Notes: a model not told the origin generated them from the sequence alone. A stretch of DNA of 64,000 nt from an uncultured delta proteobacterium (GCA_963839305.1 CAWIUL010000011.1:2633561-2697560); one strand, 5' to 3'; shown: positions 54,205-56,409, numbered from the stretch's first letter. Numbers and translations: made by a program.

Positions 54205-56409
54205 ATGTCTGGGAAAAATCTGTTGGTCATCAGCGTGGACATCCGCGAGACGCGGGTCGCGCTCATCGAAGATGGAATCATCGCCGAGCTCCACATCGAG
54301 CGGCGGGGCTCCGGGTCGCAGCCGAGCACCGTCGGCAACGTCTACCTCGGGCGGGTGACGCGCGTCCTTCCGGGGCTCCAAGCGGCGTTCATCGACATCG
54401 GACAGGAGCGGGCTGCGTTCCTCCACGTCGAGGACCTGATCCGACCGAGCGATTTCGACGCTTACTTGCAGGGTACACGCAAGCAGGCGCGCGACGAGGA
54501 CGTGGCCGGACCCGAGGTCACGGGCAACGAAGAGCTCGACGCCGAGACCGAGGCCGAGATCGAAGAGGCGCCGCCGCAGGTGCCTGCGGTCGCCGAGGGC
54601 GAGCCGCTGAGCGCACAGGACGTCACGGCCGTCACCGACGCCGAGACCGACACCGACTCGATGGAAGCCGTGGAGTCGGCCGAAGAGCTCGGGACCAACG
54701 GCCTCTCCGTGGACTCGGCAGCCGACGTGATCGCCGAGGCCGAGTCGCAGGCGGCGGCCGAAGAAGAGACCGCGGCCGCTGTGGCGGCCGACGACGCGGC
54801 CGAAGCGGACGAAGCCGACGACTGGGACGAGCCCGGTCCGATCGACCCCGAAGCAGACACGACGCCAGCGTCGCTCCCGAAAATTCCGGCGCTCGCGGCC
54901 GAGGTGGCGAGCGCGCCGATCCTCGCCGACGAAGCGGGCGAAGAAGAAGACTTCGGTGACCTCCCGGGCTTCACCGTGAGCGATCCGGGCGAGCCAGTTC
55001 CGCGTGCCGCGGCGCCCCGCGAGCGCGGCGGCGATCGCGGGGGTGGACGCGGCGGCGGCGGTGGTGGCGGACGCGCGCGTGGTCGTGGTCGCGGGCGCGG
55101 GCGCGGGCGCGGGCGCGAAGACGATCGCGGGCACGATCGCGGCGGACGCGATCGCAACAAACCGCGCCAGGCGCCCTCTCCGCTCCGCATCTCCAAGTCG
55201 ACGCCGATCCGCGAGGTCGTCAAAGAAGGCCAGGACATCATCGTCCAGGTCTCGAAGGATCCCATCGGCTCGAAGGGCGCGCGCTGCACGTCGCACATCT
55301 CGCTTCCGGGCCGCTACGTCGTCTACGTGCCGACGGTCGAGCACGTCGGCATCTCGAAGCGCATCGGCAGCGACCAAGAGCGCGCGCGCCTTCGCGAGGC
55401 GATCGACGCGATGAAGCCGCCGACCGGAGGCCTCATCGTTCGCACCGTCGCCGAGGGCCTCACGAAGAAACAGCTCAAGGCCGACGTCGGCTACCTCGTT
55501 CGCCTCTGGGGCGAGATCGCCAAGAAGAAGCAGGAGACGACGCGCGCCCCCGCGGTCCTCATGAGCGAGCTCGATCTCGTCCTCAAGATCGCGCGCGACT
55601 TGTTCACCGACGAGGTCGACCAGATCGTCATCGACGACAAACAGCAGTACGAGCGCCTCGTTCGCTTCGTCGAGATGTTCGCGCCCGAGCGCGTGAAGGA
55701 CATCGAGTTTTACCAGGGCAGCGAGCCGATCTTCGACGAGTACGGCATCGAGGACGAAATCGGCCGCGCGCTCTCGCGCAAGGTCCCGCTCCCGAGCGGC
55801 GGCTACTTGATCATCGATCAAGCCGAGGCGCTCACCGCGATCGACGTCAACACCGGCCGATTCGTCGGCAAGGGCTCGAAGGACATGGAGGAGACGATCC
55901 TCAAGACGAACCTCGAGGCCGTCCACGAGATCGCCTACCAGCTTCGCTTCCGCAACATCGGCGGCCTGATCATCCTCGACCTCATCGACATGGAGAAGGC
56001 CAACCACCGCGAGAAGGTGCGACGCACGCTCGACGACCTCCTCCAAAAAGACAAGGCGAAGACGACGCTCAACCGCATCTCGGAGCTCGGCCTCATCGAG
56101 ATGACGCGCAAGCGCACGCGCGAGTCGCTCGGCCGCATGCTCCACGAGCCGTGCTTCTATTGCGACGGCACGGGCCAGCTCCAGTCGAAGGAGACCATCG
56201 CGTACGAAATCCTACGCGAGATCCGCCGTCGCCGGCGCGATCTCCCCGGCTACACGATCATCGTCAACGCCCACCCCGCGGTGGCCGATCTCCTCACGGG
56301 CCCCGAAAAAGAGGCCCTCGCCGTCGCCGAGAACCGCTTCATGCGCAAGATCATGGTCCAGCCGCGCAAGGAGTATCACCTCGAGCAGTTCGACCTTCAG
56401 GGCAAATGA
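54205..56409 (+). CDS. rng: Ribonuclease E/G family endoribonuclease with a large acidic + RG-repeat insertion in the S1 domain.
   Basis: S1 domain (VGNVYLGRVTRVLPGLQAAFIDIG) and catalytic DNase-I-like / RNase H-like core (IIDQAEALTAIDVNTG, GGLIILDLID), ending with a Zn-link-like CFYCDGTG. A ~230-aa low-complexity insert spans roughly 54445-55135. Confidence 0.9.
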   Translation: MSGKNLLVISVDIRETRVALIEDGIIAELHIERRGSGSQPSTVGNVYLGRVTRVLPGLQAAFIDIGQERAAFLHVEDLIRPSDFDAYLQGTRKQARDEDVAGPEVTGNEELDAETEAEIEEAPPQVPAVAEGEPLSAQDVTAVTDAETDTDSMEAVESAEELGTNGLSVDSAADVIAEAESQAAAEEETAAAVAADDAAEADEADDWDEPGPIDPEADTTPASLPKIPALAAEVASAPILADEAGEEEDFGDLPGFTVSDPGEPVPRAAAPRERGGDRGGGRGGGGGGGRARGRGRGRGRGRGREDDRGHDRGGRDRNKPRQAPSPLRISKSTPIREVVKEGQDIIVQVSKDPIGSKGARCTSHISLPGRYVVYVPTVEHVGISKRIGSDQERARLREAIDAMKPPTGGLIVRTVAEGLTKKQLKADVGYLVRLWGEIAKKKQETTRAPAVLMSELDLVLKIARDLFTDEVDQIVIDDKQQYERLVRFVEMFAPERVKDIEFYQGSEPIFDEYGIEDEIGRALSRKVPLPSGGYLIIDQAEALTAIDVNTGRFVGKGSKDMEETILKTNLEAVHEIAYQLRFRNIGGLIILDLIDMEKANHREKVRRTLDDLLQKDKAKTTLNRISELGLIEMTRKRTRESLGRMLHEPCFYCDGTGQLQSKETIAYEILREIRRRRRDLPGYTIIVNAHPAVADLLTGPEKEALAVAENRFMRKIMVQPRKEYHLEQFDLQGK
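55081..55116 (+). repeat. Tandem hexanucleotide (GCGGGC)n coding repeat inside the RNase E/G insertion, encoding (GR)n.
   Basis: ggtcgtggtcgcgggcgcgggcgcgggcgcgggcgc seen directly. It encodes GRGRGRGRGRGR. Confidence 0.6.

What the first reader, a model, noticed from the sequence alone, without database searches (positions are those of the whole stretch)
54445..55135. ~230-aa acidic plus RG/RGG low-complexity insertion inside the S1 domain of RNase E/G
The S1 domain is split by a long Asp/Glu/Ala-rich stretch, followed by GRGGGGGGGRARGRGRGRGRGRGR and then DRGHDRGGRDR. The RG run is encoded by a (GCGGGC)n microsatellite.
- RG/RGG regions are RNA-binding and phase-separation motifs in eukaryotes.
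- Embedding one in a bacterial RNase catalytic region could scaffold degradosome-like assemblies without a C-terminal tail.
Basis: seen in the sequence. Interest (0 to 1): 0.5.

Follow-up and report, generated by a model that had tools for sequence, protein, structure and literature searches.

The report
Disordered charged loop splitting RNase G
A myxobacterial RNA-cutting enzyme (RNase G type) carries a roughly 250-residue floppy loop, first strongly acidic and then arginine-glycine rich, threaded through its RNA-binding S1 domain. The loop is real and shared by the whole class Polyangia, and it is a larger, differently composed version of a kind of insertion already described in other bacteria and in chloroplasts.

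Summary
ORF 54205-56409 (+) encodes a 734-aa Rne/Rng-family endoribonuclease. Its S1 subdomain is split by about 252 residues (aa 82-333, nt 54448-55203), where E. coli RNase E has 12.

The insert has four parts:
- a short helix;
- a polyacidic block (net -49);
- an invariant short motif, LPGFT-SDPGEP-PRA;
- an Arg/Gly block (net +13) with a (RG)7 run.

AlphaFold gives a confident core (pLDDT 92-98) and an unstructured insert (pLDDT below 50). Catalytic, 5'-sensor, S1 and zinc-link residues are all kept, and there is no C-terminal tail.

The insert is not peculiar to this window. All 120 nearest protein clusters and 65 Polyangia species (Sorangium, Labilithrix, Byssovorax and others) carry it, at 197-477 aa and with the same acidic-to-basic order. 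The same loop reaches 891 aa in Terriglobales Acidobacteria. It is also expanded in Bdellovibrionota, which have a C-terminal tail as well.

S1 insertions of 50-150 aa are already described for alpha-proteobacteria and plants, so this is a new variant of a known kind.

The "microsatellite" is weak, with only four perfect CGCGGG units. Scaffold or condensate roles are plausible by analogy but untested.

The parts
54205..56409 (+). Rne/Rng-family (RNase G-type) endoribonuclease gene, 734 aa, with no C-terminal non-catalytic tail
   Evidence: ORF list. Pfam PF10150 and PF20833. NCBIfam TIGR00757 at 486 bits against cut-off 326; the RNase G equivalog is the best hit at 522 bits, below its cut-off of 594. 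PDB RNase E E 2.5e-83. Foldseek E 1.6e-41.
54325..54447 (+). N-terminal half of the S1 subdomain (aa 41-81; strands 46-55, 60-64, 71-74), with F62 and F72 matching E. coli F57 and F67
   Evidence: Alignment to E. coli RNase E. AF2 strands at pLDDT 94-97. F62 is invariant in A2.
54448..55203 (+). The insertion as delimited by alignment (aa 82-333, 252 aa). Net charge -36, fraction of charged residues 0.34, charge-segregation kappa 0.29.
   Evidence: No Pfam hit.
54445..54498 (+). Conserved helix leaving the S1 barrel (aa 81-98, PSDFDAYLQGTRKQARDE). D83, F84, Y87 and G90 are invariant in 111 homologues.
   Evidence: AF2 helix 81-98, with pLDDT falling from 86 to 57. Invariant columns.
54520..54558 (+). 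Semi-conserved acidic motif TGNEELDAETEAE (aa 106-118)
   Evidence: Seen in most Polyangia homologues and in the A1 consensus (G.EE.DAEAEA).
54487..54984 (+). Polyacidic, Ala-rich disordered block (aa 95-260): 51 D/E against 2 K/R, net -49. Hypervariable in length and sequence among relatives.
   Evidence: pLDDT 37-52.
54949..55008 (+). Short linear motif DFGDLPGFTVSDPGEPVPRA (aa 249-268). P254, G255 and F256 are invariant. T257, P261, P264, P266 and A268 are conserved in at least 90% of 111 homologues.
   Evidence: Alignment A1. PGF[TS] is present in 114 of 120 nearest clusters and in 47 of 65 Polyangia species.
55012..55203 (+). Basic Arg/Gly-rich block (aa 270-333): 20 K/R, 7 D/E, 21 Gly, net +13. 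It directly precedes the next S1 strand.
   Evidence: The basic block is net +5 to +18 in every Polyangia orthologue that has the motif.
55072..55116 (+). RARGRGRGRGRGRGR run (aa 290-304), preceded by G7 (aa 283-289)
   Evidence: There are weak low-complexity matches to the RGG tails of eukaryotic ribosomal proteins uS5 and eS10.
55090..55113 (+). Perfect (CGCGGG)x4 hexanucleotide repeat. The imperfect array is 55067-55117.
   Evidence: TRF. Regex search and codon table. This is the longest perfect hexamer run among 48 related loci.
55204..55293 (+). C-terminal half of the S1 subdomain (aa 334-363), with K357 matching E. coli K112
   Evidence: Alignment. AF2 strands 344-351 and 360-362 at pLDDT 92-97. 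K357 is invariant.
56406..56723 (+). PilZ-domain gene whose ATG overlaps the RNase stop codon (ATGA). It is a conserved downstream neighbour and a possible functional partner, but it is not part of the insert.
   Evidence: Pfam PilZ E 3.5e-10. Downstream on the same strand in 77 of 80 Polyangia loci, and also beside the insert-less orthologue P0122.

Best explanation
SHOWN.
- The gene encodes an apparently active RNase G-type endoribonuclease of a Polyangia myxobacterium.
- In this lineage the surface loop joining the two halves of the S1 RNA-binding barrel, which is 12-30 aa in E. coli Rne/Rng, has been expanded into a roughly 250-aa intrinsically disordered region.
- The region has a fixed order: helix, polyacidic block, invariant LPGFT-SDPGEP-PRA motif, Arg/Gly-rich basic block, then return into S1.

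INFERRED mechanism. The loop is a built-in non-catalytic module that does, from inside the catalytic domain, what the C-terminal tail does in RNase E.
1. The RG block sits immediately before the next S1 strand, beside the RNA channel. It acts as an auxiliary, low-specificity RNA-capture site, like the arginine-rich segments of the RNase E tail or the disordered insertion of mycobacterial Rho.
2. The much larger acidic block competes electrostatically with RNA for the RG block and for the S1/5'-sensor channel. This gives autoinhibition or substrate filtering, and in the tetramer it offers multivalent acid-base contacts.
3. The invariant motif is a docking site for a protein partner that has not been identified.

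Length and sequence drift freely through slippage of short GC-rich repeats. Selection keeps the charge order, the motif and an RG run.
For: Core intact:
- D547 and D592 match E. coli D303 and D346. R413 and T414 match R169 and T170. F62, F72 and K357 match F57, F67 and K112. C650 and C653 match the zinc link. This mapping is read from the alignment. All but F72 and T414 (conserved in at least 90%) are invariant in the 119-sequence alignment A2.
- AF2 core pLDDT is 92-98 with pTM 0.72. The Foldseek top hits are E. coli RNase E.

Disorder:
- pLDDT is below 50 over aa 101-313.
- The Uversky hydropathy/charge plot places the insert on the disordered side.
- The insert has no Pfam match.

Conserved architecture:
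- An insert is present in all 120 nearest clusters wherever both anchors were found, at 234-423 aa between the anchors.
- It is present in 65 of 65 Polyangia species with both anchors, at 197-477 aa.
- The acidic part is net -30 to -74 and the basic part net +5 to +16.
- PGF is invariant.
- Charge segregation kappa is 0.29 against 0.18 +/- 0.03 in 1000 shuffles; none of the shuffles reached the observed value.
- The acidic-to-basic order is kept in 70 of 89 expanded loops in other phyla, and even in a 32-aa loop.
- The RG run is kept in relatives with different codons.

No tail.

Precedents:
- The Caulobacter S1 insert lies in the RNA channel, its acidic residues were proposed to mimic RNA, and that region binds RhlB. 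Deleting the Arabidopsis insert lowers activity.
- Deleting the R-rich blocks of the Caulobacter tail abolishes foci.
- The disordered insertion of M. tuberculosis Rho is needed for RNA recruitment.
Against: - No experiment exists on any Polyangia enzyme. RNA binding, autoinhibition and partner docking are all inferred.
- The Sorangium lineage lacks the PGFT motif and replaces the RG run with (EAPREGR)n, so neither element is indispensable across the class.
- The motif shows only a marginal pLDDT bump (aa 259-263 at 50 or above) and no predicted docking onto the core.
- An insert-less 509-aa orthologue at 66% identity, with the same PilZ neighbour, exists in a related lineage. The enzyme therefore works without the loop.
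- The correlation between acidic and basic charge (Spearman -0.48) is not corrected for phylogeny.
- Whether these genomes hold a second, tailed RNase E could not be checked.
Confidence: 0.5

Rival explanations
1. Condensate or degradosome scaffold. The acidic and RG blocks of neighbouring tetramers, together with RNA, coacervate into BR-body-like foci, and the loop rather than a tail is the platform on which decay partners assemble.
For: - The loop is a two-block, charge-segregated disordered region on an enzyme whose E. coli homologue is a tetramer (kappa z = 4.3).
- The Caulobacter RNase E tail needs its charge blocks and its R-rich blocks for liquid-liquid phase separation.
- No C-terminal tail is present in any Polyangia orthologue.
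- An invariant motif fits partner recruitment.
- Disordered insertions in Rho are predicted or shown to phase separate.
Against: - There are only two blocks, and the charge is very unequal (-49 against +13; whole insert net -36). That favours self-repulsion over self-coacervation, unlike the many alternating blocks of 10-30 residues in Caulobacter.
- The Caulobacter N-terminal domain, which includes its S1 insert, is diffuse on its own.
- No partner is known, and there is no localisation data.
Confidence: 0.2
2. Largely neutral expansion. A permissive surface loop in a high-GC genome has ballooned through replication slippage of GC-rich codon repeats. The charge bias simply inherits the acidic-then-basic character of the ancestral short loop, and the insert has no function of its own.
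For: - Length varies widely: 197-477 aa within the class, and 6-891 aa among the nearest 137 representative proteins with both anchors.
- The sequence is low in complexity.
- Codon bias is relaxed, with GC3 0.81 in the insert against 0.91 in the rest of the ORF.
- There are signs of local slippage: CGTGGT x2 and CGCGGG x4.
- Short loops already run from acidic to basic (P0122).
- An insert-less orthologue exists.
Against: - The PGF motif is invariant, and the flanking P/T/A positions are conserved in at least 90% of 111 sequences whose surroundings cannot otherwise be aligned.
- No Polyangia species among the 65 has lost the insert.
- The RG run is maintained with different codons.
- A separate conserved motif, [ILV]LPGE[ST], lies inside the independently expanded Acidobacteria loops.
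- Deleting the Arabidopsis insert is deleterious.
Confidence: 0.2
3. The segment is an artefact or foreign element: a misassembly, an intein or mobile-element insertion, a frameshifted gene fusion, or coding on the opposite strand.
For: The antisense frame is also open over 54462-55298. GC3 does not discriminate between frames inside the insert.
Against: - The insert is in frame with both S1 halves.
- The same architecture is found in independent genomes, including the complete chromosomes of Sorangium cellulosum So ce56 and Labilithrix luteola.
- There are no intein or transposase matches.
- Conserved motifs read only in the + frame.
- Open antisense frames are usual at 68% GC.
Confidence: 0.01

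Closest known systems
S1-domain insertion of alpha-proteobacterial RNase E (Caulobacter crescentus, PDB 4OXP; Voss et al. 2014, PMC4245959)
   Same: - Same place in the S1 subdomain. Query aa 301-361 align to 4OXP chain residues 130-193, which puts the C-terminal junction at about chain residue 163 where E. coli has residue 89.
- Charged, predicted disordered, and hypervariable between species.
- It lies next to the RNA channel, and its acidic residues have been proposed to mimic RNA.
   Different: - The known inserts are 50-150 aa and are described as Arg/Pro-rich. This one is 252 aa, and up to 477 aa within the class, with a long polyacidic block and an RG run.
- The Caulobacter enzyme also has a long disordered C-terminal scaffold. 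This enzyme has none.
- There is no detectable sequence similarity between the inserts beyond low complexity.
- Helicase binding was not tested here.
Chloroplast RNase E (Arabidopsis RNE) S1 insertion
   Same: An insertion in the same subdomain. Its deletion reduces activity, which shows that such loops can matter.
   Different: The plant enzyme also has a long N-terminal extension and is eukaryote-encoded. Its composition was not compared here.
E. coli RNase G (Rng/CafA)
   Same: Best-matching curated family (NF008689, 522 bits, profile positions 92-486 of 489). A catalytic domain only, with no tail.
   Different: The score is below the equivalog cut-off of 594. The S1 domain is split by 252 aa. 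The gene neighbourhood seen here (ABC-2 transporter upstream, PilZ downstream) is not the mre/maf context that I recall for E. coli rng. That recollection is from memory and was not tested.
C-terminal non-catalytic region of RNase E (E. coli arginine-rich RNA-binding segments and short linear motifs; Caulobacter charge blocks and BR-bodies)
   Same: A disordered, charge-patterned region with Arg-rich RNA-binding-type segments and short conserved motifs embedded in variable sequence.
   Different: The topology is different: an internal loop in the RNA-binding domain instead of a tail. There are two unequal blocks instead of many alternating ones. No partner has been identified.
Disordered insertions in the RNA-binding region of transcription terminator Rho (Actinobacteria, Bacteroides; PMC11347177, PMC13650167)
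   Same: A compositionally biased disordered region inserted in or next to an OB-fold RNA-binding domain of a core RNA enzyme. These insertions are diverse across phyla. In M. tuberculosis the insertion is needed to recruit structured RNA substrates, and others are predicted or shown to phase separate.
   Different: A different enzyme family. This is an analogy only.
Eukaryotic RGG/RG motifs
   Same: A contiguous (RG)7 run plus flanking RGG and GGR triplets. There are weak phmmer matches to the RGG tails of ribosomal proteins uS5 and eS10 (E 7e-4 to 0.1).
   Different: The matches are driven by low complexity. Nothing here bears on arginine methylation, and the tract is embedded in a loop dominated by acidic residues.

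Membership tests
Rne/Rng family ribonuclease (TIGR00757 / PF10150) | Profile score above the curated cut-off | tested here: met
   TIGR00757 at 486 bits against cut-off 326. PF10150 at 340.8 bits against 25.5. PF20833 at 37.5 bits against 26.8.
Rne/Rng family ribonuclease (TIGR00757 / PF10150) | Catalytic Mg2+-binding aspartates (E. coli RNase E D303 and D346; the role of these residues is taken from established knowledge of PDB 2BX2/2C0B) | tested here: met
   D547 and D592 align to D303 and D346. Both are invariant in the 119-sequence alignment.
Rne/Rng family ribonuclease (TIGR00757 / PF10150) | 5'-monophosphate sensor (R169/T170), S1 RNA-contact residues (F57, F67, K112) and zinc-link cysteines (C404/C407) | tested here: met
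   R413/T414, F62/F72/K357 and C650/C653 sit at the aligned positions. They are invariant or conserved in at least 90% of sequences.
Rne/Rng family ribonuclease (TIGR00757 / PF10150) | Fold of the RNase E catalytic domain | tested here: met
   AF2 core pLDDT 92-98. Foldseek against PDB gives top hits 6G63 and 2BX2 at E 1.6e-41 with target TM-score 0.65.
RNase G proper (NCBIfam equivalog NF008689) | Score above the equivalog cut-off | tested here: not met
   522 bits against cut-off 594, matched in two stretches because of the insert. It is still by far the best equivalog; the RNase E models score 293-299 bits against cut-offs of 900-1400.
RNase G proper (NCBIfam equivalog NF008689) | Catalytic domain only, with no C-terminal scaffold | tested here: met
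   The protein ends 2 aa after PF20833. The distance from the S1 anchor to the C-terminus is a constant 392-393 aa in 65 species.
RNase E proper (NF008074 and lineage-specific equivalogs) | Equivalog score, plus a long non-catalytic C-terminal (or N-terminal) region | tested here: not met
   296 bits against cut-off 908. There is no extension at either end.
RNase E/G homologues with an S1-domain insertion (as described for alpha-proteobacteria and plants, PMC4245959) | Insertion at the same point within the S1 subdomain | tested here: met
   The insertion lies between the positions equivalent to E. coli residues 76 and 89. The 4OXP chain coordinates put the Caulobacter insert in the same gap. 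A residue-level alignment to 4OXP was not displayed.
RNase E/G homologues with an S1-domain insertion (as described for alpha-proteobacteria and plants, PMC4245959) | High proportion of charged residues and predicted disorder | tested here: met
   Fraction of charged residues 0.34, Uversky plot on the disordered side, pLDDT below 50.
RNase E/G homologues with an S1-domain insertion (as described for alpha-proteobacteria and plants, PMC4245959) | Length of about 50-150 aa in an RNase E that also carries a non-catalytic extension | tested here: not met
   252 aa here and 197-477 aa between anchors across Polyangia, with no extension.
RNase E/G homologues with an S1-domain insertion (as described for alpha-proteobacteria and plants, PMC4245959) | Binding of a DEAD-box helicase to the S1/5'-sensor region | not testable with these tools
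   Needs pull-down or co-expression experiments. Only single-chain structure prediction was available.
RG/RGG motif region | Clustered RG or RGG repeats (three or more RG spaced by 0-4 residues; the definition is recalled from the RGG-motif literature) | tested here: met
   RARGRGRGRGRGRGR at aa 290-304, plus RGG and GGR triplets at aa 273-283 and 308-315.
RG/RGG motif region | RNA binding, or phase separation driven by the motif | not testable with these tools
BR-body-type scaffold disordered region (Caulobacter RNase E C-terminal domain) | Multiple alternating positive and negative charge blocks of 10-30 residues | tested here: inconclusive
   Charges are strongly segregated (kappa z = 4.3), but into one long acidic block and one basic block, with overall net charge -36.
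BR-body-type scaffold disordered region (Caulobacter RNase E C-terminal domain) | Necessary and sufficient for RNA-dependent foci or droplets | not testable with these tools
   Requires microscopy and in vitro phase-separation assays.
Coding microsatellite | Tandem array of identical short units, with copy-number differences between close relatives | tested here: inconclusive
   Four perfect units, or 8.5 imperfect ones. Close relatives differ in RG and poly-G run length but use other codons, and no locus exceeds 3 perfect units. No strains of the same species were available.

The most novel reading that the evidence does not exclude
In Polyangia the degradosome or condensate scaffold has been moved from a C-terminal tail into the S1 loop of an RNase G-type enzyme. 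The same may have happened independently in Terriglobales Acidobacteria, whose S1 loops reach about 900 aa and carry their own conserved LPGE[ST] motifs. The invariant LPGFT-SDPGEP-PRA motif would recruit a decay partner or a regulator, possibly the translationally coupled PilZ protein, which would link c-di-GMP signalling to RNA decay. The acidic and RG blocks would gate RNA access and drive assembly. That would be a topologically new way to build an RNA-decay machine.
Probability: 0.2. Interest if true: 0.7.

Novelty: new variant of a known kind. Interest (0 to 1): 0.42.

Why it matters
RNase E/G enzymes set mRNA lifetimes in most Gram-negative bacteria. Their disordered tails organise degradosomes and BR-bodies.

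Polyangia appear to have a tail-less enzyme that instead carries a conserved, charge-patterned disordered loop with an invariant motif inside its RNA-binding domain. Huge loops at the same site occur in Acidobacteria, and expanded loops also occur in Bdellovibrionota.

If these loops turn out to be functional scaffolds or gates, the S1 loop would be a second, widely used site for bolting regulatory disorder onto this enzyme family. RNase G-type proteins in several major soil phyla would then need re-reading as possible degradosome organisers.

It also gives a bacterial, genetically tractable context for RG-tract function. If the loops are only tolerated slippage products, they are still a clean example of how far an essential RNA-binding fold tolerates loop expansion.

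Tried and rejected
- The first AF2 run used only close homologues (alignment A1) and gave a poor model: mean pLDDT 56, with even the catalytic core at 37-50. It was replaced by a run on the diverse alignment A2, with mean pLDDT 78.
- Pfam on the insert alone found nothing at E<=1.
- I tried to display a residue-level alignment to Caulobacter 4OXP. It always ranked below the six E. coli entries, so only its coordinates were obtained.
- The listing of cluster members returned no organism names for the large-insert representatives. Taxonomy came instead from two further homology searches.
- The review by Ait-Bara & Carpousis 2015, which classifies RNase E homologues, is not held. I therefore cannot exclude that it already mentions delta-proteobacterial S1 inserts. 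Three literature searches found no paper linking S1 inserts to Myxococcota, Acidobacteria or Bdellovibrionota.
- GC3 cannot pick the reading frame inside the insert: 0.81 in the true frame against 0.82 in two other frames. The frame rests on continuity with S1 and on conserved motifs.
- The window is not identical to any GTDB species representative. The nearest, L001 (Polyangiaceae SMAG_U5184), is 82% identical at the DNA level, so no same-species repeat-length comparison was possible.
- No second Rne/Rng gene lies in the 64-kb window. The rest of the genome could not be examined.
- Misassembly, intein and antisense coding were considered and rejected (see the rival explanations).
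Full report
**1. The observation**

The window holds a 734-aa ORF at 54205-56409 on the + strand. It is an Rne/Rng-family endoribonuclease:
- Pfam RNase_E_G at aa 366-638, E 7e-102.
- The thioredoxin-like small domain at aa 649-732.
- NCBIfam TIGR00757 at 486 bits, above its cut-off of 326.
- The best equivalog is RNase G at 522 bits, below its cut-off of 594. The RNase E equivalogs score only 293-299 bits.

In the phmmer alignment to E. coli RNase E crystal structures, E. coli residues 2-76 align to query 4-81 and residues 89-431 align to query 334-677. So 252 residues (aa 82-333, nt 54448-55203) sit where E. coli has 12, between the third and fourth strands of the S1 barrel. 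Pfam does not report an S1 domain, which fits a split one.

Both quoted peptides are present.

Composition of the insert is A 17, E 13, G 13, D 11, R 8, P 8 %.

**2. Anatomy of the insert**

| Part | Residues | Notes |
|---|---|---|
| Conserved helix | aa 81-98 | |
| Semi-conserved acidic motif TGNEELDAETEAE | aa 106-118 | |
| Acidic, Ala-rich block | aa 95-260 | 51 D/E, 2 K/R, net -49 |
| Motif DFGDLPGFTVSDPGEPVPRA | aa 249-268 | |
| Basic block | aa 270-333 | 20 K/R, 7 D/E, 21 Gly, net +13; contains G7 and RARGRGRGRGRGRGR |
| Return into S1 (RISKSTPIREVVKEGQ) | from aa 328 | |

Charge segregation (kappa) is 0.29, against 0.18 +/- 0.03 in 1000 shuffles; none reached the observed value. Mean hydropathy and net charge place the insert on the disordered side of the Uversky boundary and the rest of the protein on the folded side. 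The insert alone matches no Pfam family at E<=1.

A first AlphaFold run on a shallow alignment was poor. A second run on a diverse 119-sequence alignment gave mean pLDDT 78 and pTM 0.72. The core scored 92-98 and aa 101-313 scored below 50. The only structure predicted in the insert is the helix 81-98 and a four-residue turn. Foldseek finds E. coli RNase E catalytic domains first, at E 1.6e-41.

**3. The enzyme looks active**

Reading the alignment against the known E. coli residues gives these matches:
- D547 and D592 to D303 and D346 (metal site).
- R413 and T414 to R169 and T170 (5'-monophosphate pocket).
- F62, F72 and K357 to F57, F67 and K112 (S1 RNA contacts).
- C650 and C653 to the zinc-link cysteines.

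All of these are invariant or conserved in at least 90% of alignment A2. The functional roles of the E. coli residues are taken from established knowledge of the 2BX2/2C0B structures.

**4. The DNA repeat**

TRF reports a period-6 array at 55067-55117, with 8.5 copies at 84% match. Only four units, CGCGGG at 55090-55113, are perfect.

In the RG tract, Gly codons are GGC 7, GGG 6, GGT 5 and GGA 3. In the rest of the ORF they are GGC 29, GGG 4, GGA 3 and GGT 0. Identical units also cluster (CGTGGT x2, CGCGGG x4). With GGG at about 0.11 elsewhere, four in a row is roughly a 1e-4 event under independent codon choice. A recent local slippage duplication is therefore likely.

The nearest species, however, encode (RG)5-8 with mixed codons and at most 3 perfect units. 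The RG run is a protein-level feature, and "microsatellite" overstates the DNA repeat.

**5. Distribution**

- All 120 nearest 90%-identity clusters are 671-886 aa. They are named Polyangiaceae, Pendulispora or Myxococcales where named at all. Wherever both anchors were found, 234-423 aa lie between them, against about 27 in E. coli by my count. Each of these has an R/G run.
- In alignment A1 (111 sequences), P254, G255 and F256 are invariant. T257, P261, P264, P266, A268 and R292-G293-R294 are conserved in at least 90%, inside otherwise unalignable sequence.
- A scan of GTDB species genomes gave 80 Polyangia loci. They include complete chromosomes of Sorangium cellulosum So ce56 and So0157-2 and of Labilithrix luteola DSM 27648, and a Byssovorax metagenome-assembled genome.
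- In the 65 loci with both anchors, the insert is 197-477 aa. The distance from the S1 anchor to the C-terminus is always 392-393 aa, so there is no tail. 47 loci have PGF[TS], with an acidic part upstream (net -34 to -77) and a basic part downstream (net +5 to +18).
- The Sorangium branch lacks the motif and carries (EAPREGR)n instead of an RG run, but keeps the acidic-then-basic order.
- The window itself matches no species representative. The nearest is 82% identical at the DNA level.

**6. Beyond Polyangia**

An exhaustive HMMER search of 50%-identity representatives shows that the same loop ranges from 6 to 891 aa among the 137 nearest representatives with both anchors:

| Loop length | Representatives |
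|---|---|
| 50 aa or less | 48 |
| 51-150 aa | 14 |
| 151-400 aa | 42 |
| more than 400 aa | 33 |

- The giant, tail-less forms belong to Acidobacteriota (Terriglobales, Ca. Angelobacter). They hold their own conserved motif, [ILV]LPGE[ST]..K[YF], sometimes twice.
- Forms with both an insert and a C-terminal tail of 200-420 aa belong to Bdellovibrionota.
- 70 of 89 loops of at least 60 aa keep a net-negative body and a net-positive last 50 residues. Even a 32-aa loop reads AAFEEMVAGDAEDEDDEPTRDVKPVKRLTRST.
- That short-loop protein (P0122, 509 aa, 66% identical) lies next to a PilZ gene, a CarD gene and a Ser/Thr kinase gene. It is therefore an orthologue from a related lineage, and the expansion happened within the myxobacterial lineage.

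**7. What is known**

- Voss et al. [quoted passage not shown] They describe it as 50-150 aa, rich in charged residues and predicted to be disordered.
- In Caulobacter, part of the insertion forms helices that protrude into the RNA-binding site. Acidic residues there were proposed to mimic RNA.
- The S1/5'-sensor fragment of the Caulobacter enzyme binds the helicase RhlB.
- Deleting the Arabidopsis insert reduces activity.
- Another paper, citing Ait-Bara & Carpousis 2015, calls the alpha-proteobacterial insert arginine-proline rich.
- The 4OXP chain coordinates place the Caulobacter insert in the same gap as here.
- The Caulobacter C-terminal tail, with alternating charge blocks, is necessary and sufficient for BR-bodies. 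Removing its R-rich blocks abolishes foci. The N-terminal domain alone, which includes the S1 insert, is diffuse.
- A parallel exists in Rho, where diverse disordered insertions sit near the RNA-binding domain. In M. tuberculosis the insertion is required for recruiting structured RNA.
- I found no paper in the held library that mentions S1 insertions in Myxococcota, Acidobacteria or Bdellovibrionota. The key 2015 review could not be read.

**8. Interpretation**

Shown: a class-wide, disordered, charge-ordered expansion of the S1 loop in an otherwise intact, tail-less RNase G-type enzyme, with an invariant short motif.

Inferred:
- The RG block, tethered next to the RNA channel, serves as an auxiliary RNA-capture element.
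- The acidic block acts as an intramolecular competitor or gate.
- The motif is a docking site.

Condensate scaffolding is possible, but the two unequal blocks and a net charge of -36 make simple self-coacervation less likely than in Caulobacter.

A purely neutral origin explains the length variation and the slippage marks. It does not explain the invariant motif, the universal retention, or the RG run kept with different codons.

Artefact explanations are excluded by the independent complete genomes.

**9. Verdict**

The finding is real and correctly read as an insertion. It is a new variant of a known kind: larger, polyacidic plus RG, with a motif, without a tail, and in a new phylum. It is not a new category. 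Its function is untested. Interest is moderate.

Noticed in passing
window 56406-56723 (+): A 105-aa PilZ-domain gene starts with an ATG that overlaps the RNase stop codon (ATGA). A PilZ homologue lies downstream on the same strand in 77 of 80 Polyangia loci, mostly within 0-70 nt. It also lies beside the insert-less orthologue P0122 (L081 4686-5081). This points to a conserved RNase G-PilZ operon and a possible link between c-di-GMP and RNA decay.
   Followed up: partly
proteins P0196-P0264 and P0233 relatives (Acidobacteriota, Terriglobales): RNase G-type proteins of 850-1365 aa whose S1 loop is 400-891 aa, with no tail. The loops are rich in RG/RGG and acidic blocks. They contain a conserved [ILV]LPGE[ST][LI].[KR][YF] motif, often with a second WDGG..LPGET copy.
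   Followed up: partly
proteins P0138, P0141, P0144, P0152-P0160 and others (Bdellovibrionota): Rne/Rng proteins of about 1000-1250 aa that combine an S1 insert of 180-390 aa with a C-terminal tail of 200-420 aa. Many of them do not follow the acidic-then-basic order.
   Followed up: partly
L068 (Sorangium cellulosum So ce56), within match 4001-6718: The S1 insert is 444 aa between the anchors. Its basic part is a tandem heptapeptide array, (EAPREGR) in about 10 copies, instead of an RG run. The LPGFT motif is absent in the whole Sorangium branch.
   Followed up: partly
L001, L011, L013, L014 against window 56400-56410: In the four closest relatives the PilZ gene lies 0.5-0.8 kb downstream of the RNase gene, whereas in the window the two genes overlap. 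Something has been gained or lost in that spacer.
   Followed up: no
window 54151-56145 (-) and 54462-55298 (-): Long open antisense frames of 664 and 278 aa run across the RNase gene. The second reads as a Pro/Arg/Ser-rich mirror of the insert. These are shadow ORFs, as expected at 68% GC, and there is no evidence that they are coding.
   Followed up: partly
window 57766-58575 (-): A 269-aa ORF ending in a polyacidic tail (...DELDDEDEDDDDEDEEEKEDE). This is another charged low-complexity tract close to the RNase gene.
   Followed up: no
window 51962-54138 (-): A divergently oriented ABC transporter pair (ATPase and ABC-2 permease) lies upstream of the RNase gene. This upstream DNA is conserved in the nearest relatives L001, L011 and L013.
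   Followed up: no
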